DNA of 64,000 nt from the human T2T-CHM13v2.0 reference genome, Homo sapiens, in the NCBI RefSeq assembly GCF_009914755.1, contig NC_060925.1. The stretch is one strand, 5' to 3'. Below are positions 2,065 through 55,815 of this stretch, in pieces. The first letter of the stretch is position 1. Each line of letters begins with the position of its first letter. The notes beneath the pieces were generated by a model, which was not told the DNA's origin, did no database searches, and saw only the letters and a program-made list of their open reading frames with translations. The position numbers and the translations under genes were made by a program.

Positions 2065-2118
2065 TCTTTGTCCTTTAGGACCTTGACTCCCAGGTGGTCC
2101 TCTTGCCCCCACATGACC
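2065..2118 (-). CDS. COL24A1: Collagen XXIV exon (54 bp) GHVGARGPPGSQGPKGQR
   Basis: tag acceptor, 18 codons Gly-X-Y, donor gtaagt. Confidence 0.93.
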
Positions 2119-3468
2119 CTATATGTTGTAAATTTAAAGTCAGTTGTAGAATTTACAAGAATACTATCAGAATAATAGCCATAATCTTTCTTATAACATA
2201 TATCCTTCTCCCAGGACATTTTTACAATTGATTAGTCTTCCTTAAAAATATGCTTTAATCACACTGCCCTCTACCAATATTCTGCTTTTGAAATATTCTA
2301 CTATTTGGACAAATTTAATGTCTGGGTGTTTACACCCTGAATAAAAAATGGAGAAGCTTTTAATATTCACTGACCAAGTCGTTTTCAGAAGGAACACATA
2401 TGGAGTGATGGAGGAAGGAGATATCCATTGAGCTAGACAGACCGGTCTAATCTGCCTGGCCCATCAAAAAAGCAATGGCTATCATGGTAATATTTCTTTA
2501 CTATTATTCTAGATATTTATGCCAATCCCATCACATAAAAATAGTTTTTTTGTTATAAAAATGCCACACAATGTTCCAAATTACTATGCTATAAAAATAG
2601 CCTGCAATGGAGATTAAGTTGCTATTTATTATTAAGTCAATTATAATGAATTATTTTTATAGCTATAGTCTTTAATTAAGACTCAACTGGAAAACAAAAT
2701 TTATTTATCTATTAACCCAAGGTAGATAAAAATGAAGTAAACTTTAGTATTTCAAATTTATTTATTATTTTATGTGACTAAAGATATTAGTAACTGTTCT
2801 TGAGACTACTCTTCCTAATTTTAAAAGCCAACAACATATTTGCAAATATACTAGAAAATTGGGCTTATTTTTAAAACAGAAGCTTCACAAATAATAAAAG
2901 TCTTCACTGATAAGAAAAGTTCTGCTCAGGGGATCCTAAAGGCCGATCTTGTTCATATTTTAAGTTCATAATAGCTGTCAGATTCTGATAAGCAAAATTA
3001 ATTTAGGGGAAACACTTCATCATCTTTTTGTAAACAAATGGAATATTTTCAATACTACAATTTTTGTTTAATAAATACATATTTTTATGAATTTTATCTG
3101 GTTGTGATAATATTTACAAATTTCTGAGAAAAATATGTTGAAGCTTACACTTGTAATTTATTTATTCAATTGGTCTCACTTCTAATCTTAATAATCCTGT
3201 TTCCTTATATGTGGTTATTCAAAAGAAACTTCAAAGCATTTTAGTTTAGGTTGCAGAACTGAAATTGATTGTATACCAAGTAGAGGTGAGGCAGTTCAAG
3301 ATATCATGACAAATTCAAGAGTGTTTTGTATAGTTGGGAGAGAAGCAGTCTCCACTAGTTTACACATGACTTACTTTGAATAAAAACCAACAATAAAGCA
3401 TAACAATTTATGAGTTTAAATTAAAGTAAACATTCCGGAAGGAATCATAAAGTCTTTCCTGTACTTAC

Positions 3469-3522
3469 AGGTAATCCCAATGGACCGATAGGTCCTGGAA
3501 CCCCAGGAGGACCTGGATATCC
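3469..3522 (-). CDS. COL24A1: Collagen XXIV exon (54 bp) GYPGPPGVPGPIGPLGLP
   Basis: tag acceptor, 18 codons Gly-X-Y, donor gtaagt. Confidence 0.93.
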
Positions 3523-4820
3523 CTATAATTTAAGGAAAATATAAAAGAAGTAAAATATTCATGACTTTAAATTATTTTCATTGAAGACAAGCCAGTAAAT
3601 TATAAACAATAATAAAAAGGGATAATTTGACACAATGTTTCTTTTGTAACCAAGATATGAAAGGCCACAGGAAATATTCTGCAGATAGACCATAGAAATA
3701 AAAAAAAATTTTCTGTAGTTTTATTTACATAGAAACTATATATCCATTTATTAGAAGGTTTTTGCCTAGAGAAGAAAATTGCTAGCTAGAATCACATACT
3801 ACAGCCTATTTATAAGAGAACATTCATTTCATTTTTCTGAAGATCATGTTATCTTATCCATGGATATATGTTGTGTTATATAGGTTATGAAACTATATCC
3901 TTTTCGGAGAGGTCCAGGAGCTCTCTAATTAAGCAATGTAAATGTGTACAAATATTCTAGCATTTCAAACTTTAGAAGGACCACACACTTTATGGTATTA
4001 ACACTGATTCAAAAAATGCGTTAGGAGGTAATGATTCTTGAAGTTGATTAGTCTTACAGGCATGCTAAATTTCCTAGCTGACAGCAACTGGAAATTGCAT
4101 AGCTTAAAAAACAAAACAAAACAAAACACTTATAGGACTTTTCTGATAATATAGAAGTTAGTTAAAATCAATTTGTAGACAGTATTATGTGCCACCAGAT
4201 CCATTACAAGGCATTTTCTGTATGGAATATCCTTTTATTGATAATAATTATTCACTCCAGTTCCTGCCATACTTAGAAAACTATTTAGTAAGTTAAAAAG
4301 ATGCAACCCAAATATAAAATTTGTCAGCTATTTCCTATATTAAAAGTGTAAGAGAATAAGATGAATTCTGGATTCTAAGCTCTCATATGTCAAAAAACTA
4401 CATCATGACCACAAACTCATGGAAGAATGGCAGTGCTGATATGTGTCATATCAACAATAGGCTGTAGAAGAATAAGTAGAACTCTAATTTTAAAAGGTGA
4501 AAGATTTATACAATCCGAAGAGAAATCACAGTATGTAGAATTCTAATTGAATTTTCTTCTTTATCTTTTTTAGCAAATTGTGGTGGTCAAATTCCTTTCC
4601 TAAAACTAGAATCATTTGACTAAGCCATCTCATTTACATGCTTTTGAGTACCTTAGTATCACATAGCATTCTGGGAGATAAACCATTTAAAAATAAAATT
4701 CTATGGGAAATTTAACATTTTTTACTCAGTTAAATTCCAGCCCAGGCAATTCCATCTCTGGAACGACTTGCTTTTATTGCATTCTTTGGAAACATATTTT
4801 TCAAATCACTGAGCTCTTAC

Positions 4821-4874
4821 CATAACACCTTTTTCTCCCTGGGGACCTAGTGGGCCTGGACTTCCACGTTCTCC
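4821..4874 (-). CDS. COL24A1: Collagen XXIV exon (54 bp) GERGSPGPLGPQGEKGVM
   Basis: Pyrimidine tract + aaag acceptor, 18 codons Gly-X-Y, donor gtaaga. Confidence 0.93.
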
Positions 4875-6250
4875 CTTTTAAGAGAACAAAGAAAAAAGAG
4901 TAACATAGAGGCATATTAATTAGTCATGACTGAGCTAAGCCTAGAAAGAAAAACTGTCATCCAGAATCATGTCTTACATGCATACATCATTTTTATTTCC
5001 AATAATTTTTAAATTTACAAATTTGGCGCTTTATCTTAAAATTATTAGACTTTTAATAAAATAGAATTATCTTAAGATGTTTTTTGGAGAAAAATATTAA
5101 AGTCCTTATTAAAATGAAGAAAATAGAAATTATGGATAAACAAGACTTAAAAGTGAGCACACATCATATGTTAAAGTTTTGTAAGAAATGCTTACTATTT
5201 TATGAGACATACAAAATATGAGAATAGTGAAAGTATCAAAGCATATTAAAATGTAACAAATCTGTGTAACCATTTAAGAAAATTTTATTTTATAGTCTGC
5301 CTACCACAATTAAGTGCCATAAGAAATAAGTCTGGAAGATCATGATAATCAAATCTGTCATAGCAGCTTAAAAAGACTAAACTGATTCACATTAAAATTC
5401 TCAAGAGTATCAACATTTTAGTACAGAAGATTTAACTCAGCACAGAAATAACTAATTGGGTGAAAAAAATTATAATGCAAAATTTTTTAACTGCACTCAT
5501 TTTGTTACATTGTTAGTAAAAAATCAATAAGTATATATTAAGTATGTAGTATTTAAGTAATTGAGAATGTAGTACATGAGAGTTAGAAGAGATATTTAAA
5601 AAACTAAACTTAGATTCTACCCTCAGTAACTGCAGACACTGCAGACATGATATTAACAGAGATGAAACAACCAGAGAGTAAGTAAATTTTGACTATGTGG
5701 TACTATTCTAAGTCCAAGAAGTGAAGAAATTAGGAAGGATGAGAGGAGTCTGTGGACTTCATAGAGGAGATGGGAATTCAGCTGAGTCCAACAGTTTGGT
5801 TTTGAAGAAACAGAGGGAAGGAGAGAGGATATTTTAGTTCAAGAAAATAGTAAGAATGGAAATAGGAACAAGCTCAAGCACAAGATGGGGAGAGAGAAAG
5901 GTAAAATGGTAACTTATTCTTCTTTTTCAAAAACTGCTTTCTTTCAAGCCTCTCATAGAAGGCTTGCTCTCATGAAGTCGATTTACATAATATTTTCTAG
6001 TCAGAAATCTAGACTGTTCCATCTTTTCTCTTCAGATCACATCTTTATAATCAAAAGGGTACTCTGCCCTTTAAAAATTAGAAACCTACATGCTGTTAGC
6101 TATATTTCAATATATTTAAGATATTCAGTATAGGTAATGTGCTAAAGTTATAAGTGATTTCTAATTAACATAAAAGATCATATGAAAGTCTGCCTTTTGA
6201 ATTTAGCCTAGATTTTTTCCTATAAAACAAAATAATTCTTAAAAAATTAC

Positions 6251-6304
6251 CTTTTCGCCAATGCTTCCAGTCATCCCAACTTCTCCAGGTAAGCCAACAG
6301 GTCC
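6251..6304 (-). CDS. COL24A1: Collagen XXIV exon (54 bp) GPVGLPGEVGMTGSIGEK
   Basis: T-rich tract + aaag acceptor, 18 codons Gly-X-Y, donor gtaatt; phase 0. Confidence 0.93.
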
Positions 6305-6717
6305 CTTTTAGGAAAAAAAAATAACAGAAAATACACACATATTGTATTGCTATTGTAGTGCCTGGGTCTTAAATCACCTGTAATCACTATGTTTCTTTCT
6401 AACTTATCCTAAATGTTATCTTGGAGTAAAATTCCTCCTTGTATAGCTATGCAGTCTGTGACTTCATATCAGAATTAATTTATTCAGTCAGTCAACAAAA
6501 ATATATCAGTGCCTAAAATATAACAGGCACTACGCTGGGAGGCAATGAGTTTCAAATCCACAGTCGCTGTCCATGTGGAACTGACATGCTACTAGATTTT
6601 ATAAAACCCCTGACGTTTTCATACCTGTTTGATGTGGATATATTCGTTTAAGAAATCATTTCTGTAACTACCTTTTTTGAAAGCCCCTCAATACACAAGC
6701 GGACAGAACATGCCTAT

Positions 6718-7090
6718 CATTCATTCATCCACTCAAGAAATATTTGGTGCCTACTCTGTGCCAGGCACTGTGATGGTTGCTAAGACTTCATTACTGAGGA
6801 AGACAAATCTAGACCCTGCCCTCTTGAGGCAAAAAGTCTCATAACAGGGAGACAAAAGCAACTAAATTAAAAGTTAAATAATTATAAATTCTGACATAAG
6901 CTCATAAAGGAAACAATAATATTGCTGAAGAGGAGAATAAAAGAGAAGACCTATTTTAGCACAGATGGTCAGGGAAGACTGAGGCCTGACATTTAATATG
7001 AAATCTGAATAATAATAAGAGGCCAGCCAGCCAAAGAAGGGAGGAAGAATATTCTAGGTAGAGTAAATAGCTTGAGTAAGGAATGAATTT
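6718..7090 (-). mobile_element. L2 3' fragment
   Basis: cattcattcatcc...ctactctgtgccaggcactgtg...gtcagggaagact. Confidence 0.65.
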
Positions 7091-7629
7091 GATTTGCTAG
7101 AAGATGTTAAAGAAGGTAATCAGTTACACCATTTCAGAGTGAACACGTCTCAGGGTTTTTCCATCTTTGTCTTTACGGATTCTCAATTATTTCTCCTTCA
7201 AACAGTACAGAAAGCAAAAAGAATAACACAGAACAAGCTTGACAAGAACATAATCTCTTTCTTGTCTTAAATCATAAGCAGTTACTTTCTACTTTTATTT
7301 AAAGACAAATGAAACTTTTTTCAATAGCTACCATGCAAAGACCTTGTTTAGATAGATTCTCATACGATAGTATACATTAGCATACAGAAAGCATTGACTC
7401 ATGAAAAATGACTTGTCATTTATCTAATGCATTGAGCATGATTTTACCCTTACAGATCTCTATCTATCTAATGATCCCATATATATAACATATATTAAGT
7501 GTTTTCTATGTGCCTGATTTAATCTTCACAACCAGCAGATATAGTATTATCATCATTCCCCTTTGACAGATGAGGCAGATGAATTAAACAGTTTGCTGAC
7601 ACAGATGAGGTTAAATAGTATGGATGAGT

Positions 7630-7925
7630 TTAAGTGGCTATTGAGCACTTGAAATGTGGTTAGTGCAAATTGACACATACTGTAAATGTAAAAGACACCA
7701 GATTTTGAAGACTTATAGAAAGAATGTAAAATAGCTAACTAATGATTGCTTACATCGATTACGTATTAAAATGATACTGATTTGATATATTGGTATAAAT
7801 GAAATATTACTAAAATCAGTTCACCTCTTTCTTTTTATCTTTTTTAATGTGGCTACTAGAAAATTTAAAATTATATATGTGGCTTATAATTTTGACTTGC
7901 ATTGTATGTCTATTGGACAGCCCTG
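7630..7925 (+). mobile_element. MER33-like hAT-Charlie DNA transposon
   Basis: gtggctattgagcacttgaaatgtgg...atgtggctactagaaaatttaaaatta...ctattggacagccctg. Confidence 0.7.
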
Positions 7926-8732
7926 ATGTATACTTTTAGGTACTATGCTAATATTATTGCTTAAATCTAGTTGGAAGTGATTTAATAATTTGTTTCTGTG
8001 GTTTTTAAGTGTAAGAGACTGAACACTTTCATTCTGAGACAATCTATTATCAATGTTCATGTGCATGGAATTCACTGGTCTCACTGTGTTCTCCACCATT
8101 CTGAGACAGCTGGTTTGATAAAACGGTGAAATGGCATTTTTAAGACTCAGTTACAAGGCCAGCTAGGTGACAATACTTTGCAGGGTTGGGGCAAGACTTT
8201 CCAGAAGGCTATATATGCTCTGAATCAGTGTCCAATATATGGTGCTGTTTCTCCTATAACTAGTATTTTGGGGTCCAGGAATCAAGGGGTGGAAATGGGA
8301 GTGGTACTACTCACTATTACCCCTAGTCATCCACTAGAAAATTTTTTGTTTCTGCCCATGCTCTGCTGGACTAAAGGTCTTAGTTCCAGAGGGAGGAATG
8401 CTTCCACCAGGAGACACAACGATGATTCCACTGAACTAGAAGTTAAGACTGCCATCCGGCCACTTTGGGCTTCTTATGCCCCTGAATCAACAGCCAAAGA
8501 AGGGAGTTACTGTGTTGGCTATGTTGCTTAATTCTGCCTTCCATAGGGAAATGGGACCTTCACAATGGAGGTAAGGAAGAGTGTGAATAAAATACAGGAG
8601 ATCCCTTAGGATACGTCTTAATATCACCATGCTCTGTGATTAAGGTCAATGGAAAATTACAACAACCCAGTTCAGGCAGGACTACTTACTAGTGACCCAA
8701 ACTCTTCCGGAATGAAGGTTTGGGTCACCCCA

Positions 8733-9008
8733 TGTCTTAGTCCATCCAGGCTACTATAACAAAAATATTGTAGGCTGGGTGACTTTAACAACAAATATTT
8801 ATTTCCCACAGTGTTGGAGGCTTAGAAGTCTAAGATCAAGGCACCAGTAGATTCAGTATCTAGTGAGGGCCTGCTCCCTGGTTCATAGATGGCAGAGCCC
8901 TCATGACCTAATCATCTCCCAAGGTCTACACCACCTCATACCTTACATTGGTCATTAGAATTTCAACATATGAATTTTGCAGAGGATAAAAACATTCAGT
9001 TCATAATA
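8733..9008 (-). mobile_element. MaLR solo LTR (MLT1A-like) nested in ERV-L
   Basis: tgtcttagtccat...tcaacatatgaattttg...; 5-bp TSD CCCCA at 8728-8732 and 9009-9013. Confidence 0.8.
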
Positions 9009-9174
9009 CCCCACCAAGTACAGATCCCAACTAGCTGAGGTGCTTGCTGATGGCAAACGGAATAAAGAATGGGTAGCGGAGAAGGTAGTTTTAAATACCT
9101 GCTATGGCCATGTGACCAGTTACAGAAACGAAGACTATAATTGTCATGAGTATTTCATCGTTATTTTGTCATGA

Positions 9175-9175
<1 letters not shown>

Positions 9176-9213
<38 letters not shown>
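9176..9213. repeat. (TG)n microsatellite
   Basis: About 19 TG units. Confidence 0.95.
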
Positions 9214-9216
<3 letters not shown>

Positions 9217-9250
9217 CAAATATCTTTGGTTCTTTTCTTCTCATTTCTTT

Positions 9251-9620
<370 letters not shown>

Positions 9621-9845
9621 TAATTTTACATCATAGTATTTAAGTTACAGGTTATAAAGGAGAAGAGTAAACATCACTCAAGGACTTTACATCCTCTTCT
9701 GGAAAAGAGGTTAGTGAGTTTTTGGTTACATGCAGGATAATGATATCATGTTAGGCAGAATTATGATCTTATTATTGTCTTTATTTGAAGGTTAAGTATG
9801 GTTTAAAGAGATGCATTTGGGGGCAAACTTGACAATGGGGAGGGC

Positions 9846-10415
9846 TGTCACGGTTAATTTTATGTGTCAAGGTCACTGGGTTACAGAGTGCTCAGATATT
9901 TGGCTAAACATTATTTCTGAGTGTATGTTGTTTCTAGGTGAGATTAACATTTAAATAGGTAAACTGACTAAAGCAGATTGCCTTTCCCAATGTGGGTGGG
10001 CACTGTCCAATCTGTTGAGGATCTGAATAAAACAAAAAGGCAAAGGAAAGGAAACTTTTCTCTCCATCTGACTGCTTAGGCTGGGACATTAGTCTTCTCC
10101 TGCCTTTGAACTAGGACAGCATTGACTCCTAGTTCTCAGGCCTTTGGACTTGGAGTAGAATTTAAATAATCAATGCTGTAGGTCTCAGGCCTGTGGACTC
10201 TGATAGAACTTACACTGTCAATTCTTGTGGTTCTCAGGCCTTTGAACTCGGACTGGAACTATACTGGATTTCTAGGATCTCCTGTTTGTGGATGGAAGAC
10301 TGTGAGATTTTTTTTTAGCCCCCCACAATCATGTGAGCCAATTCTTTATAATAAATCAATCTATCTATATCTATATCCTGTTGGTTCTGTTTCTCTGGAA
10401 AACCCTAACTAATGC
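9846..10415 (+). mobile_element. MLT2-family LTR (3' LTR of the ERV-L)
   Basis: tgtcacggttaattttatgtgtcaa...ttctgtttctctggaaaaccctaactaat. Confidence 0.8.
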
Positions 10416-15851: not shown

Positions 15852-21708
<5,857 letters not shown>

Positions 21709-21935
21709 AAAGAGTCAAAAAGGAGGAGAACCAGGAATGCACAAAGAAAGATACAGAAAATAAAAGTTTCAAGAAGAGAGAAATCTGTGTGATGTGGGAA
21801 GGTTTAAGAAGGATGAACATTAAGACAAATTCATAGAATTTAGCAATCACCAGGTTGATGGTAACCTGTAGGAACAATTTCAGTAGCTTTTGTGTGTTTG
21901 GATATGTTTGCCAAAGGGTTAAGAATGTGTGTAGG

Positions 21936-22843
21936 GGGAGGAGGAGCCAAGATGGCCGAATAGGAACAGCTCCGGTCTACAGCTCCCAGCGTGAGCGACG
22001 CAGAAGACGGGTGATTTCTGCACTTCCATCTGAGGTACCGGGTTCATCTCACTAGGGAGTGCCAGACAGTGGGCGGAGGCCAGTGTGTGTGCGCACCCTG
22101 CGCGAGCCGAAGCAGGGCAAGGCATTGCCTCACCTGGGAAGCGCAAGGAGTCAGGGAGTTCCCTTTCCGAGTCAAAGAAAGGGGTGACGGACGGCACCTG
22201 GAAAATCGGGTCACTCCCACCCGAATATTGCGCTTTTCAGACCGGCTTAAGAAACGGCGCACCACGAGACTATATCCCACACCTGGCTCAGAGGGTCCTA
22301 CGCCCACGGAATCTCGCTGATTGCTAGCACAGCAGTCTGAGATCAAACTGCAAGGCGGCAACGAGGCTGGGGGAGGGGCGCCCGCCATTGCCCAGGCTTG
22401 CTTAGGTAAACAAAGCAGCCAGGAAGCTCGAACTGGGTGGAGCCCACCACAGCTCAAGGAGGCCTGCCTGCCTCTGTAGGCTCCACCTCTGGGGGCAGGG
22501 CACAGACAAACAAAAAGACAGCAGTAACCTCTGCAGACTTAAGTGTCCCTGTCTGACAGCTTTGAAGAGAGCAGTGGTTCTCCCAGCACGCAGCTGGAGA
22601 TCTGAGAACGGGCAGACTGCCTCCTCAAGTGGGTCCCTGACCCCTGACCCCCGAGCAGCCTAACTGGGAGGCACCCCCCAGCAGGGGCACACTGACACCT
22701 CACATGGCAGGGTATTCCAACAGACCTGCAGCTGAGGGTCCTGTCTGTTAGAAGGAAAACTAAAAACCAGAAAGGACATCTACACCAAAAACCCATCTGT
22801 ACATCACCATCATCAAAGACCAAAAGTAGATAAAACCACAAAG
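21936..22843 (+). promoter_or_regulatory. L1HS 5'UTR: CpG-rich internal sense promoter (YY1 site CAAGATGGCCG 21948-21958) and antisense promoter
   Basis: CpG-dense; YY1 motif intact; SOX-type AAACAAA motifs near 22408 and 22508. Antisense promoter activity is established for L1HS/L1PA 5'UTRs. Confidence 0.85.
22044..22388 (-). CDS. L1 antisense ORF0, long 114-aa form
   Basis: MAGAPPPASLPPCSLISDCC... from ATG 22388 in strong Kozak context (gcaATGg); an extra G at 22193/4 (GACGGACGGCACC) extends it past the usual 71-aa end. Confidence 0.75.
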   Translation of the reverse strand: MAGAPPPASLPPCSLISDCCASNQRDSVGVGPSEPGVGYSLVVRRFLSRSEKRNIRVGVTRFSRCRPSPLSLTRKGNSLTPCASQVRQCLALLRLAQGAHTHWPPPTVWHSLVR

Positions 22844-23860
22844 ATGGGGAAAAAACAGAACAGAAAAACTGGAAACTCTAAAACGCAGAGCGCCTCTCCT
22901 CCTCCAAAGGAACGCAGTTCCTCACCAGCAACAGAACAAAGCTGGAGGGAGAATGATTTTGACGAGCTGAGAGAAGAAGGCTTCAGACGATCAAATTACT
23001 CTGAGTTACGGGAGGACATTCAAACCAAAGGCAAAGAAGTTGAAAACTTTGAAAAAAATTTAGAAGAATGTATAACTAGAATAACCAATACAGAGAAGTG
23101 CTTAAAGGAGCTGATGGAGCTGAAAACCAAGGCTCGAGAACTACGTGAAGAATGCAGAAGCCTCAGGAGCCGATGCGATCAACTGGAAGAAAGGGTATCA
23201 GCAATGGAAGATGAAATGAATGAAATGAAGCGAGAAGGGAAGTTTAGAGAAAAAAGAATAAAAAGAAATGAGCAAACCCTCCAAGAAATATGGGACTATG
23301 TGAAAAGACCAAATCTACGTCTGATTGGTGTACCTGAAAGTGATGTGGAGAATGGAACCAAGTTGGAAAACACTCTGCAGGATATTATCCAGGAGAACTT
23401 CCCCAATCTAGCAAGGCAGGCCAACGTTCAGATTCAGGAAATACAGAGAACGCCACAAAGATACTCCTCGAGAAGAGCAACTCCAAGACACATAATTGTC
23501 AGATTCACCAAAGTTGAAATGAAGGAAAAAATGTTAAGGGCAGCCAGAGAGAAAGGTCGGGTTACCCTCAAAGGAAAGCCCATCAGACTAACAGTGGATC
23601 TCTTGGCAGAAACCCTACAAGCCAGAAGAGAGTGGGGGCCAATATTCAACATTCTTAAAGGAAAGAATTTTCAACCCAGAATTTCATATCCAGCCAAACT
23701 AAGCTTCATAAGTGAAGGAGAAATAAAATACTTTATAGACAAGCAAATGCTGAGAGATTTTGTCACCACCAGGCCTGCCCTAAAAGAGCTCCTGAAGGAA
23801 GCGCTAAACATGGAAAGGAACAACCGGTACCAGCTGCTGCAAAATCATGCCAAAATGTAA
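22844..23860 (+). CDS. L1 ORF1p (338 aa; coiled coil, RRM, CTD)
   Basis: Full-length MGKKQNRK...NHAKM with REKG, ARR and YPAKLS motifs intact. Confidence 0.97.
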   Translation: MGKKQNRKTGNSKTQSASPPPKERSSSPATEQSWRENDFDELREEGFRRSNYSELREDIQTKGKEVENFEKNLEECITRITNTEKCLKELMELKTKARELREECRSLRSRCDQLEERVSAMEDEMNEMKREGKFREKRIKRNEQTLQEIWDYVKRPNLRLIGVPESDVENGTKLENTLQDIIQENFPNLARQANVQIQEIQRTPQRYSSRRATPRHIIVRFTKVEMKEKMLRAAREKGRVTLKGKPIRLTVDLLAETLQARREWGPIFNILKGKNFQPRISYPAKLSFISEGEIKYFIDKQMLRDFVTTRPALKELLKEALNMERNNRYQLLQNHAKM

Positions 23861-23899
23861 AGACCATCGAGACTAGGAAGAAACTGCATCAACTAATGA

Positions 23900-27751
<3,852 letters not shown>

Positions 27752-28746
27752 ACAATGAGATCACATGGACACAGGAAGGGGAATATCACACTCTGGGGAC
27801 TGTGGTGGGGTCGGGGGAGGGGGGAGGGATAGTATTGGGAGATATACCTAATGCTAGATGACACATTAGTGGGTGCAGCGCACCAGCATGGCACATGTAT
27901 ACATATGTAACTAACCTGCACAATGTGCACATGTACCCTAAAACTTAGAGTATAATAAAAAAAAAAAAAGAAAGAAAAAAAAAAAAAGAATGTGTGTAGG
28001 TGAAGAGAAAATGTAAAAAACTTGTATAGTTTAGATGATTATTTTAATAAGTTGGCAGCAAAAATGAGGAGGCATGAAAACTGCTAAAGGATGTGGTTGC
28101 AAAATTACTCTATTCAGTATCTAATTTTTGCTGTCAGCCAAATAGAGTTCATCGGCAATAGAAAATGTACCCTTCTGAACAGAAATAAATTACATTAAAA
28201 ACCTACGTTTTTGCTGTGTTTCACAGAATAATTTTTTTTAACACACTATTATTATGGCCTAATCTATCACGATTGGTTGGGAACCAACACACTGTAACAG
28301 GAGAGAAGATGCTGGCAGGATTAATCTTCTCCCAAAGACTATTTCCTAGCCAGCTCCCTACTTCTAGATAGCTTTCCTACACTTGGAATGCTCCATCCAG
28401 GGAAGGCATGTATTGTGCAAAGGTGCCATATAACCTCTTCCTTCTTAACAGAAGTACTTTCTGAAAGGCAGACTAAGGTGCTGTGACTTATTCTCATTTT
28501 TTTCCATGAAACTTCAAGTATCATATATGCTAGTGAGAATCAGACAAATGCAAGTGAGAATCAAGGGCAAAATTATATTTTCAATTGTAAAGTTGTCAAA
28601 GGCAAATTATGTGCATGTGGAAATGGTCATAATTTATTTATATTTACTACTATAGCTCTTTAAAATAGAGACATGGGTGAATTCTGGTTTGTTCCTATTT
28701 ATTCTTCTTCATTTTAAAACAAATGTTGAAATATTATGTATTACTA

Positions 28747-55770: not shown

Positions 55771-55815
55771 TGTTTCACCAATTTTTCCAATATTTCCTTG
55801 ATCTCCTACTTCTCC
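55771..55815 (-). CDS. COL24A1: Collagen XXIV exon (45 bp) GEVGDQGNIGKIGET
   Basis: ttttttgacag acceptor, 15 codons Gly-X-Y, donor gtaagc; 45 bp is a canonical fibrillar-collagen exon size. Confidence 0.92.

What the first reader, a model, noticed from the sequence alone, without database searches (positions are those of the whole stretch)
22134..22388. Long ORF0 of the intronic L1HS is positioned to splice in frame onto collagen XXIV exons
Seen: the L1HS is antisense to COL24A1, so its antisense promoter fires in the gene's direction. An extra G at 22193/4 lengthens ORF0 from the usual 71 aa to 114 aa. The frame then crosses the strong donor CAG|GTGAGG (last exonic base 22134) after exactly 255 nt = 85 codons, i.e. 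phase 0. All downstream collagen exons start in phase 0. The two usual ORF0 donors (after 22283, phase 1; after 22198, phase 2) are out of frame. Inference: one 15,829-nt splice to the acceptor at 6304 gives ORF0(1-85)-GPVGLPGEVGMTGSIGEK-..., a collagen XXIV C-terminal part with no signal peptide, under L1 (methylation-sensitive) control. Established: L1 antisense-promoter chimeras and ORF0 fusions exist. The extra G resembles the older L1PA state, so the long ORF0 itself may already be known; this specific fusion is my prediction.
Basis: partly seen in the sequence, partly recalled or inferred. Interest (0 to 1): 0.8.

Follow-up and report, generated by a model that had tools for sequence, protein, structure and literature searches.

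The report
Lengthened L1 ORF0 facing collagen exons
A young, intact L1 retrotransposon inside a collagen XXIV intron carries a one-base insertion that lengthens its small antisense gene ORF0 so that it could in principle be spliced in frame onto collagen exons, but the published transcript data I could see give no sign that the required splice site is ever used.

Summary
The sequence observation is correct. A full-length L1HS lies at about 21935-27987 on the + strand, with target-site duplications and intact ORF1 and ORF2, antisense to COL24A1. One extra base at 22193/22194 extends its ORF0 from 71 to 114 aa. The frame crosses CAG|GTGAGG (here called D3, last exonic base 22134) after 255 nt, phase 0. 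Joining D3 to exon 6251-6304 stays open through all four collagen exons in the window. The two usual donors give premature stops.

New points:
- The extra base is the older L1PA state: 197 copies carry it against 615 without, and the usual old ORF0 is 102 aa.
- Extra base plus the G-type D3 occurs in only 8 copies genome-wide.
- The extra base sits at +5 of the usual second donor (CAG|GTGCGT becomes CAG|GTGCCG).

Against the fusion:
- In Criscione 2016 Table S3, 13 of 13 ESTs that reach D3 read through it, while about 48 splice at the second donor.
- That paper places the main antisense start at about L1 position 400, downstream of the ORF0 ATG.
- Its only L1HS-COL24A1 EST comes from a different L1HS about 178 kb downstream and uses the second donor.
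- No RefSeq exon starts in this element.

Verdict: a real allele with a possible but unsupported fusion.

The parts
21935..27987 (+). Full-length L1HS with its poly(A) tail (27957-27987). ORF1 is 22844-23860 (338 aa) and ORF2 is 23924-27751 (1275 aa); both are open.
   Evidence: The ORF0 stretch differs at only 5-6 of 345 positions from the nearest other copies.
21921..21934 (.). 5' target-site duplication AAGAATGTGTGTAG. The 3' copy lies at about 27986-27999.
   Evidence: Read directly.
22044..22388 (-). Lengthened ORF0, 114 aa plus stop. Residues 1-64 are identical to the usual 71-aa ORF0.
   Evidence: No Pfam family matched.
22193..22194 (.). GG on the + strand (CC on the - strand), of which one base is extra. 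It shifts ORF0 past its usual stop and occupies +4/+5 of the second ORF0 donor.
   Evidence: Absent from 29 of 29 nearest copies. The same state is present in 197 copies genome-wide against 615 without it.
22278..22286 (-). First ORF0 donor CAG|GTGTGG. Last exonic base 22283, phase 1.
   Evidence: At least one EST in Criscione Table S3 is spliced at this site.
22192..22200 (-). Second ORF0 donor, here CAG|GTGCCG where 29 of 29 nearest copies have CAG|GTGCGT. Last exonic base 22198, phase 2.
   Evidence: This is the donor used by EST DA754060 from the sibling L1HS.
22128..22136 (-). Third donor-like site D3, CAG|GTGAGG. Last exonic base 22134, phase 0, and inside the ORF only in the long form.
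   Evidence: The same 26-mer context occurs in 586 copies genome-wide. ESTs read through it in 13 of 13 cases.
6251..6304 (-). COL24A1 coding exon GPVGLPGEVGMTGSIGEK, the next annotated acceptor downstream of the L1. It holds an in-frame ATG at codon 11.
   Evidence: Hub annotation.
2065..4874 (-). Three further 54-nt collagen exons (4821-4874, 3469-3522, 2065-2118), all phase 0.
   Evidence: Hub annotation.
15859..21711 (+). Older full-length L1 in the same orientation, about 90% identical over its body. Any antisense transcript must cross it before reaching exon 6304.
   Evidence: Seven of the 20 crude acceptor candidates lie inside it.

Best explanation
This is an ordinary intronic insertion of a young L1HS with target-site duplications, a poly(A) tail and open ORF1 and ORF2. 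Its 5'UTR carries a private one-base insertion.

The insertion happens to restore the reading frame that ORF0 had in older L1PA families. ORF0 therefore runs 114 aa instead of 71 and passes through a third GT site, D3. The same base also removes the +5 G and +6 T of the donor that L1 antisense transcripts use most.

The in-frame relation of D3 to the collagen G-X-Y exons is real (shown). It is most likely a coincidence without a regular product (inferred). If the element is demethylated, I expect its antisense promoter to give mainly three kinds of RNA:
- RNAs that start downstream of the ORF0 ATG;
- RNAs spliced at the first donor, which is out of frame;
- RNAs that read through D3 into the flank and the neighbouring old L1.

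An ORF0(1-85)-collagen XXIV mRNA would be at best a rare isoform. Its protein would lack a signal peptide and so could not be processed as a collagen in the ER.
For: - The geometry is shown.
- The insertion is private among close relatives: 29 of 29 nearest copies lack it.
- It matches the ancestral state. 197 copies carry it, and 13 of 29 sampled ones encode 102 aa.
- D3 is not used in 13 of 13 ESTs that contain it, including 3 with the same CAG|GTGAGG form as here.
- About 48 of 60 ESTs containing the second-donor site are spliced there.
- 586 genomic copies carry the same D3 context, so if D3 were a working donor there would have been ample chance to see it used.
- Criscione 2016, section 7 as read, puts the primary antisense promoter at about 400 bp, just after a YY1 site at 448-453. 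That site overlaps the ORF0 ATG.
- EST DA754060 begins about 31 nt after the equivalent ATG.
- Table S1 of that paper has one COL24A1 row, and it maps to a different L1HS.
- The hub's RefSeq table shows no exon in 21934-22600.
- The path to exon 6304 holds 29 poly(A) hexamers and 20 crude acceptor candidates at least as pyrimidine-rich as the true one.
Against: - D3 matches the textbook donor consensus (MAG|GTRAGT, recalled) at 8 of 9 positions. That is better than the first donor (7 of 9) and the damaged second donor (6 of 9). With the favoured donor weakened, D3 use could rise in this copy specifically.
- None of the 13 read-through ESTs comes from a copy that has both the extra base and the G-type D3.
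- The two ESTs that carry the extra base both skip the second donor.
- The normal COL24A1 pre-mRNA crosses the same 15.8 kb and still finds the acceptor at 6304, so the path is passable.
- The sibling L1HS in the same gene does make a spliced chimera in NT2 cells, flagged as also seen in H1 long reads.
- An in-frame product ends at the native stop and would escape nonsense-mediated decay, unlike the other two junctions (inference).
- The EST sample is small, limited to ESTs with predicted peptides, and its cells are cut at about 400 characters.
Confidence: 0.7

Rival explanations
1. When the element is demethylated, antisense transcripts that start upstream of 22388 skip the first donor and the weakened second donor. 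They splice at D3 to exon 6304 and are translated into an ORF0(1-85)-collagen XXIV fusion lacking a signal peptide.
For: - The frame is open across the junction and four exons.
- The only ATG on the - strand between 22600 and 22134 is the ORF0 ATG. It has G at -3 and G at +4.
- The second donor loses its +5 G.
- D3 is a good consensus match.
- A sibling L1HS in the same gene makes a spliced chimera.
- Reviews state that ORF0-exon fusions occur.
Against: - 0 of 13 ESTs use D3.
- The main antisense start lies downstream of the ATG.
- There is no EST or RefSeq exon for this locus (hub table).
- The intact first donor lies nearer the cap.
- There are many competing sites on the way.
Confidence: 0.1
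2. The antisense promoter of this L1 does drive a truncated collagen XXIV, but without ORF0. Transcripts starting downstream of the ORF0 ATG have no AUG in their first exon whichever donor they use. Translation would then begin at the in-frame Met inside exon 6251-6304 (GEVG-M-TGSIGEK).
For: - There is no ATG between 22387 and 22134 on the - strand.
- The first ATG of the exon is in the collagen frame.
- The primary antisense start is at about 400 bp.
- For the sibling EST, Criscione's predicted peptide likewise starts at an internal collagen Met.
Against: No transcript evidence exists for this locus. The same doubts apply about splicing to 6304 and about the fate of a collagen without a signal peptide.
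Confidence: 0.12
3. The extra base is an error of the assembly, or a variant private to this one genome, and not a feature of the element in the population.
For: It is a single-base length difference that none of 29 close relatives shares.
Against: The context GCCG is not a homopolymer run. Four further private substitutions lie within 120 nt of it (22149, 22119, 22098, 22076), which looks like real divergence of this copy. I could not compare other human assemblies.
Confidence: 0.03

Closest known systems
L1 ORF0 (Denli et al. 2015, Cell 163:583). I saw only what other papers say of it; the paper itself is not held.
   Same: An antisense ORF in the L1 5'UTR downstream of the antisense promoter. 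The ATG is the same and residues 1-64 are identical to the 71-aa form. It has internal splice donors that allow fusion to host exons.
   Different: Here it is 114 aa, not 70-71. The second donor is altered. A third GT site falls inside the ORF and supplies the phase (0) that the two described donors lack.
L1 antisense-promoter chimeric transcripts (Speek 2001; Criscione et al. 2016, PMC4908685)
   Same: A full-length young L1 antisense to a host gene, with its promoter pointing at downstream exons. The catalogue already holds an L1HS-COL24A1 chimera, EST DA754060 from NT2 cells.
   Different: That catalogued chimera comes from another L1HS about 178 kb downstream (L070). It has the usual 71-aa ORF0, uses the second donor and joins a C-propeptide exon 3.3 kb away, out of the ORF0 frame. 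No transcript is recorded for the element in this window.
Older L1PA ORF0 (copies that carry the extra base)
   Same: The same reading frame past the usual stop...FSRCRPSPLSLTRKGNSLTPCASQVRQ....
   Different: Older copies mostly stop at 102 aa and have A, not G, at the last exonic base of D3 (CAA or CGA before GTGAGG). 28 of 29 sampled copies lack the G form, and 790 copies genome-wide have the A form against 586 with G. Only one other copy, L065 on contig 9, shares the full 114-aa architecture with an ATG in register.

Membership tests
L1 ORF0 | ORF on the antisense strand of a primate L1 5'UTR, starting at the conserved ATG | tested here: met
   ATG at 22388, about L1 position 455. It is the same start as in 29 of 29 close copies.
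L1 ORF0 | Sequence identity with the described ORF0 peptide | tested here: met
   Residues 1-64 are identical to the 71-aa ORF0 of 28 of 29 nearest copies; one copy has a single substitution.
L1 ORF0 | Length of about 70-71 aa with the usual stop | tested here: not met
   114 aa. The frame shifts at codon 65.
L1 ORF0 | Two internal splice donors | tested here: inconclusive
   The first is intact (CAG|GTGTGG). The second is changed to CAG|GTGCCG. Function was not tested.
L1 antisense-promoter chimeric transcript | Young full-length L1 5'UTR oriented so that antisense transcription runs along the host gene | tested here: met
   The L1 is on the + strand and COL24A1 on the - strand (hub table).
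L1 antisense-promoter chimeric transcript | A transcript that starts in the L1 and is spliced to a host exon | tested here: inconclusive
   None for this element in Criscione Tables S1 and S3. COL24A1 is absent from the held supplements of Jonsson 2019. No RefSeq exon lies in the element (hub table). RNA-seq data were not available to me.
ORF0-exon fusion protein | An open frame across an L1 donor / host acceptor junction | tested here: met
   This holds only for D3 joined to 6304. The first donor gives a stop in the fourth exon and the second donor a stop in the first exon.
ORF0-exon fusion protein | The donor concerned is used in cells | tested here: not met
   0 of 13 ESTs containing the D3 site are spliced there. 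This is small-sample evidence from other copies.
ORF0-exon fusion protein | Peptide or ribosome evidence | not testable with these tools
   No proteomic or Ribo-seq data are on hand.
Intact L1HS (Ta-like) | Full length, target-site duplication, poly(A) tail, open ORF1 and ORF2 | tested here: met
Intact L1HS (Ta-like) | ACA trinucleotide in the 3'UTR (diagnostic recalled from memory) | tested here: met
   ...GATGACACATTAGTGGG... at about 27863-27865. That this marks the Ta subfamily is recalled and comes from no call.

The most novel reading that the evidence does not exclude
A possibly mobile L1HS allele has regained the long ancestral ORF0 frame on a modern background that has a G-type third donor. 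Because the three donors then cover all three phases, this allele, and any progeny it makes, could fuse ORF0 in frame to phase-0 exons. The usual 71-aa ORF0 cannot do this. At this locus it would make a methylation-controlled ORF0-collagen XXIV protein without a signal peptide in pluripotent or hypomethylated tumour cells.
Probability: 0.07. Interest if true: 0.5.

Novelty: new member of a known kind. Interest (0 to 1): 0.28.

Why it matters
If the fusion were made, it would be a locus-specific, epigenetically switched chimeric protein. It could act as a tumour or pluripotency marker or as a neoantigen. It would also show that single-base variation among active L1 copies changes which host exons ORF0 can join.

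As things stand, the value lies in three smaller points.
- The 71-aa ORF0 of the youngest L1s looks like a shortened form of a roughly 102-aa ancestral ORF.
- The one-base difference that shortened it also gives the main antisense donor its +5 G.
- COL24A1 holds two antisense L1HS copies, one of which is already documented to drive a chimera.

All three can be checked against existing long-read RNA and pangenome data.

Tried and rejected
- Denli 2015, Speek 2001 and Matlik 2006 are not held. I therefore could not check whether the long ancestral ORF0 or a third donor is already described there. This bears directly on novelty.
They may list L1 chimeras in brain.
- Full-text searches gave nothing relevant. 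'COL24A1' + 'L1HS' returned 0 papers. 'COL24A1' + 'LINE-1' + 'chimeric' returned 1 paper, unrelated by its title and abstract.
- I followed a 1p22.3 lead. The L1 of Rangwala 2009 is intergenic, between SH3GLB1 and CLCA, so it is not this one (passages). A hot 1p22.3 source element in a 2024 preprint cannot be tied to this locus from the passages shown.
- I considered that the extra base came by gene conversion from an older L1. I rejected this because the four neighbouring private substitutions are not the older state.
- I considered a chance ORF and rejected it, because the frame is the ancestral one.
- Pfam found nothing in the 114-aa product.
- The crude scan for acceptors and poly(A) hexamers cannot decide anything, since the normal gene transcript crosses the same stretch successfully.
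- No splice-site scoring model was on hand. Donor strengths are given only as matches to the recalled consensus.

Full report
**What is there**

The window holds a full-length L1 on the + strand at about 21935-27987. It has a 14-nt target-site duplication (AAGAATGTGTGTAG, at 21921-21934 and again just after the poly(A) tail). ORF1 is open at 338 aa and ORF2 at 1275 aa. Over the ORF0 stretch it differs at only 5-6 of 345 positions from the nearest other copies in the same genome. Its 3'UTR shows the ACA that I recall as the Ta mark (the diagnostic is recalled). COL24A1 runs on the - strand (hub table). The L1 antisense promoter therefore points along the gene, inside the 49.5-kb intron between exons 55771-55815 and 6251-6304.

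**Check of the observation**

- The - strand ORF 22044..22388 is 114 aa.
- From the ATG at 22388 to the G at 22134 is 255 nt, followed by GTGAGG.
- I joined each candidate first exon to the four annotated exons in the window.
  - The donor after 22283 is phase 1 and runs into a stop in the fourth exon.
  - The donor after 22198 is phase 2 and stops in the first exon.
  - The site after 22134, which I call D3, is phase 0 and reads ...TPCASQ-GPVGLPGEVGMTGSIGEK... open through all four exons.
- Every in-window collagen exon downstream is 54 nt and begins with a full glycine codon.
- The acceptor at 6304 is a long pyrimidine run ending AAAAG.

**The extra base**

The 39 other best matches in the genome each span 344 bases against 345 here. 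In 29 of 29 fetched copies (L002-L030) the sequence reads GTGCGTCCG where this copy has GTGCCGTCCG, and ORF0 is 71 aa.

Genome-wide, the 25-mer with the extra base occurs 197 times and the 24-mer without it 615 times. I examined 29 other copies with the extra base, the first listed on contigs 1-3 and so not a random sample:

| ORF from the same ATG | Copies |
|---|---|
| 102 aa | 13 |
| 114 aa | 1 |
| Longer (160 and 169 aa) | 2 |
| Shorter | 6 |
| No ATG in register | 7 |

They match this copy at 164-326 of 345 ungapped positions. The familiar 71-aa ORF0 looks like a shortened descendant of a roughly 102-aa ORF.

In this copy the extra base is a secondary event on a young background. Four further private substitutions cluster within 120 nt of it (22149, 22119, 22098, 22076), and they are not the older state.

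First, the older copies nearly all have A at the last exonic base of D3, that is CAA or CGA before GTGAGG. Only 1 of the 29 sampled has CAG. Genome-wide the G form occurs 586 times and the A forms 790 times. The extra base together with the G-form D3 at the right spacing occurs in only 8 copies, this one included. Of the other seven:
- L065 shares the 114-aa architecture;
- two encode 102 aa;
- one is a diverged 160-aa form;
- three have no ATG in register.

Second, the extra base lies inside the second ORF0 donor. CAG|GTGCGT, found in 29 of 29 close copies, becomes CAG|GTGCCG, which loses G at +5 and T at +6. By the recalled consensus MAG|GTRAGT the matches are:

| Donor | Matches out of 9 |
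|---|---|
| Usual second donor | 8 |
| D3 | 8 |
| First donor | 7 |
| Altered second donor | 6 |

**Is D3 used?**

I had no RNA-seq. The best available evidence is the set of EST sequences printed in Table S3 of Criscione et al. 2016 (PMC4908685, supplement file 5). Its cells are cut at about 400 characters, and it covers only ESTs with a predicted peptide.
- The motif ending at the second donor occurs 60 times. Twelve of these continue with GTG, so about 48 are spliced there.
- The motif leading into D3 occurs 13 times: 3 with CAG, 7 with CAA and 3 with CGA. All 13 continue with GTGAGG, so none is spliced at D3.
- Two ESTs carry the extra base, and both read through the second donor.
- At least one EST is spliced at the first donor.

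The site the fusion depends on has therefore not been seen in use, although 586 genomic copies offer it. None of these ESTs comes from a copy that has both the extra base and the G-form D3, so the test is indirect.

**Where transcripts start**

Criscione et al. [quoted passage not shown] Here the ORF0 ATG is at L1 position about 455. The main start therefore lies downstream of the ATG.

EST DA754060 begins about 31 nt after the equivalent ATG, though an EST 5' end may be incomplete.

The only ATG on the - strand between 22600 and 22134 is the ORF0 ATG. Transcripts that start upstream of it would translate ORF0. Those that start downstream have no AUG until the in-frame Met within exon 6251-6304. 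This second route to a truncated collagen does not need ORF0 or D3.

**A sibling element**

Table S1 of the same paper lists one COL24A1 chimera: EST DA754060 from NT2 cells, L1HS on the + strand, 'not tested' by hand, and flagged as detected in PacBio data. Its coordinates lie near the 3' end of the gene. That puts it about 178 kb downstream of this window's element.

I fetched that region as L070. It holds another L1HS in the same orientation, with a 71-aa ORF0, an open ORF1 and a broken ORF2. The EST leaves the L1 at the second donor and joins a C-propeptide exon 3.3 kb away.

This shows that L1HS antisense transcription into COL24A1 happens. It happens by the usual donor and from another copy. 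No row exists for the element studied here. COL24A1 is absent from the held supplements of Jonsson 2019. None of the 22 RefSeq transcripts has an exon in the element (hub table).

**The path**

Between 22133 and 6305 lie 15,829 nt. They hold 20 AATAAA and 9 ATTAAA hexamers and 20 crude acceptor candidates at least as pyrimidine-rich as the true one. Seven of those candidates are inside an older full-length L1 (15859-21711, same orientation, about 90% identical). The normal gene transcript crosses all of this and still uses 6304, so the path is passable but not clear.

**The product**

The 114-aa ORF matches no Pfam family. Its N-terminus has no hydrophobic stretch: the highest 9-residue Kyte-Doolittle mean in the first 48 residues is 1.4. 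A fusion would therefore stay outside the secretory path, where collagen cannot be hydroxylated (established knowledge). It would most likely be unstable (inference).

**Verdict**

I put about 0.7 on 'a real allele, with the in-frame relation a coincidence and no regular product'. A few percent goes to an assembly-private or erroneous base.

In kind, this is a new member of known classes, namely ORF0 variants and L1 antisense chimeras. Whether the long ancestral ORF0 is already in print I could not establish, because Denli 2015 is not held.

Noticed in passing
L070 about 5375-10000 (own genome contig 1, 85584001-85594000), about 178 kb downstream in COL24A1: A second L1HS lies antisense in the same gene. 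It has a 71-aa ORF0 at 5614-5829(-), an open ORF1 and an ORF2 split into at least two pieces. It is the source of the published NT2 EST DA754060, which is spliced at the second ORF0 donor to an exon starting at L070 2366(-).
   Followed up: yes
window 22076-22194: Five private differences from the 29 nearest copies cluster in about 120 nt of the 5'UTR: the insertion plus 22149, 22119, 22098 and 22076. Apart from these, only position 22290 differs, and only from 7 of the 29 copies. The cause is unknown.
   Followed up: partly
window 22192-22200 and the genome-wide counts: The one-base difference that separates the 71-aa ORF0 of young L1s from the roughly 102-aa form of older L1PA copies also decides whether the main antisense donor has G at +5. 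The G at the last exonic base of the third site is likewise a young-family state (586 copies against 790). Antisense splice signals seem to have changed along with the ORF.
   Followed up: partly
window 21919-22125 (-): A 68-aa ORF starts just after D3 (MPCPASARAG...). It corresponds to the peptides beginning MPRPASARAR... that Criscione Table S3 predicts from ESTs reading through the L1 5' end into host exons.
   Followed up: no
Criscione 2016 Table S3: Several ESTs that read through all three donor sites end their L1 part at ...CTTGGCTCCTCC and then continue with unrelated, partly coding sequence. This looks like a join at the very 5' end of the L1, but no GT is evident there in this window's copy.
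   Followed up: no
window 15859-21711 (+): An older full-length L1 (about 90% identical over 5.3 kb, with a more diverged 5'UTR) lies head-to-tail 222 bp upstream of the L1HS, in the same orientation.
   Followed up: partly
L065 (own genome contig 9, around 132249248, - strand): This is the only other copy found with the same architecture: ATG in register, extra base, G-form third donor, 114-aa ORF0, and 334 of 345 positions identical to this one. Its genomic context was not examined.
   Followed up: no
window 6272-6274 (-): There is an in-frame ATG (GEVG-M-TGS) inside collagen exon 6251-6304. It would be the first AUG of any antisense L1 transcript that starts downstream of the ORF0 ATG.
   Followed up: partly
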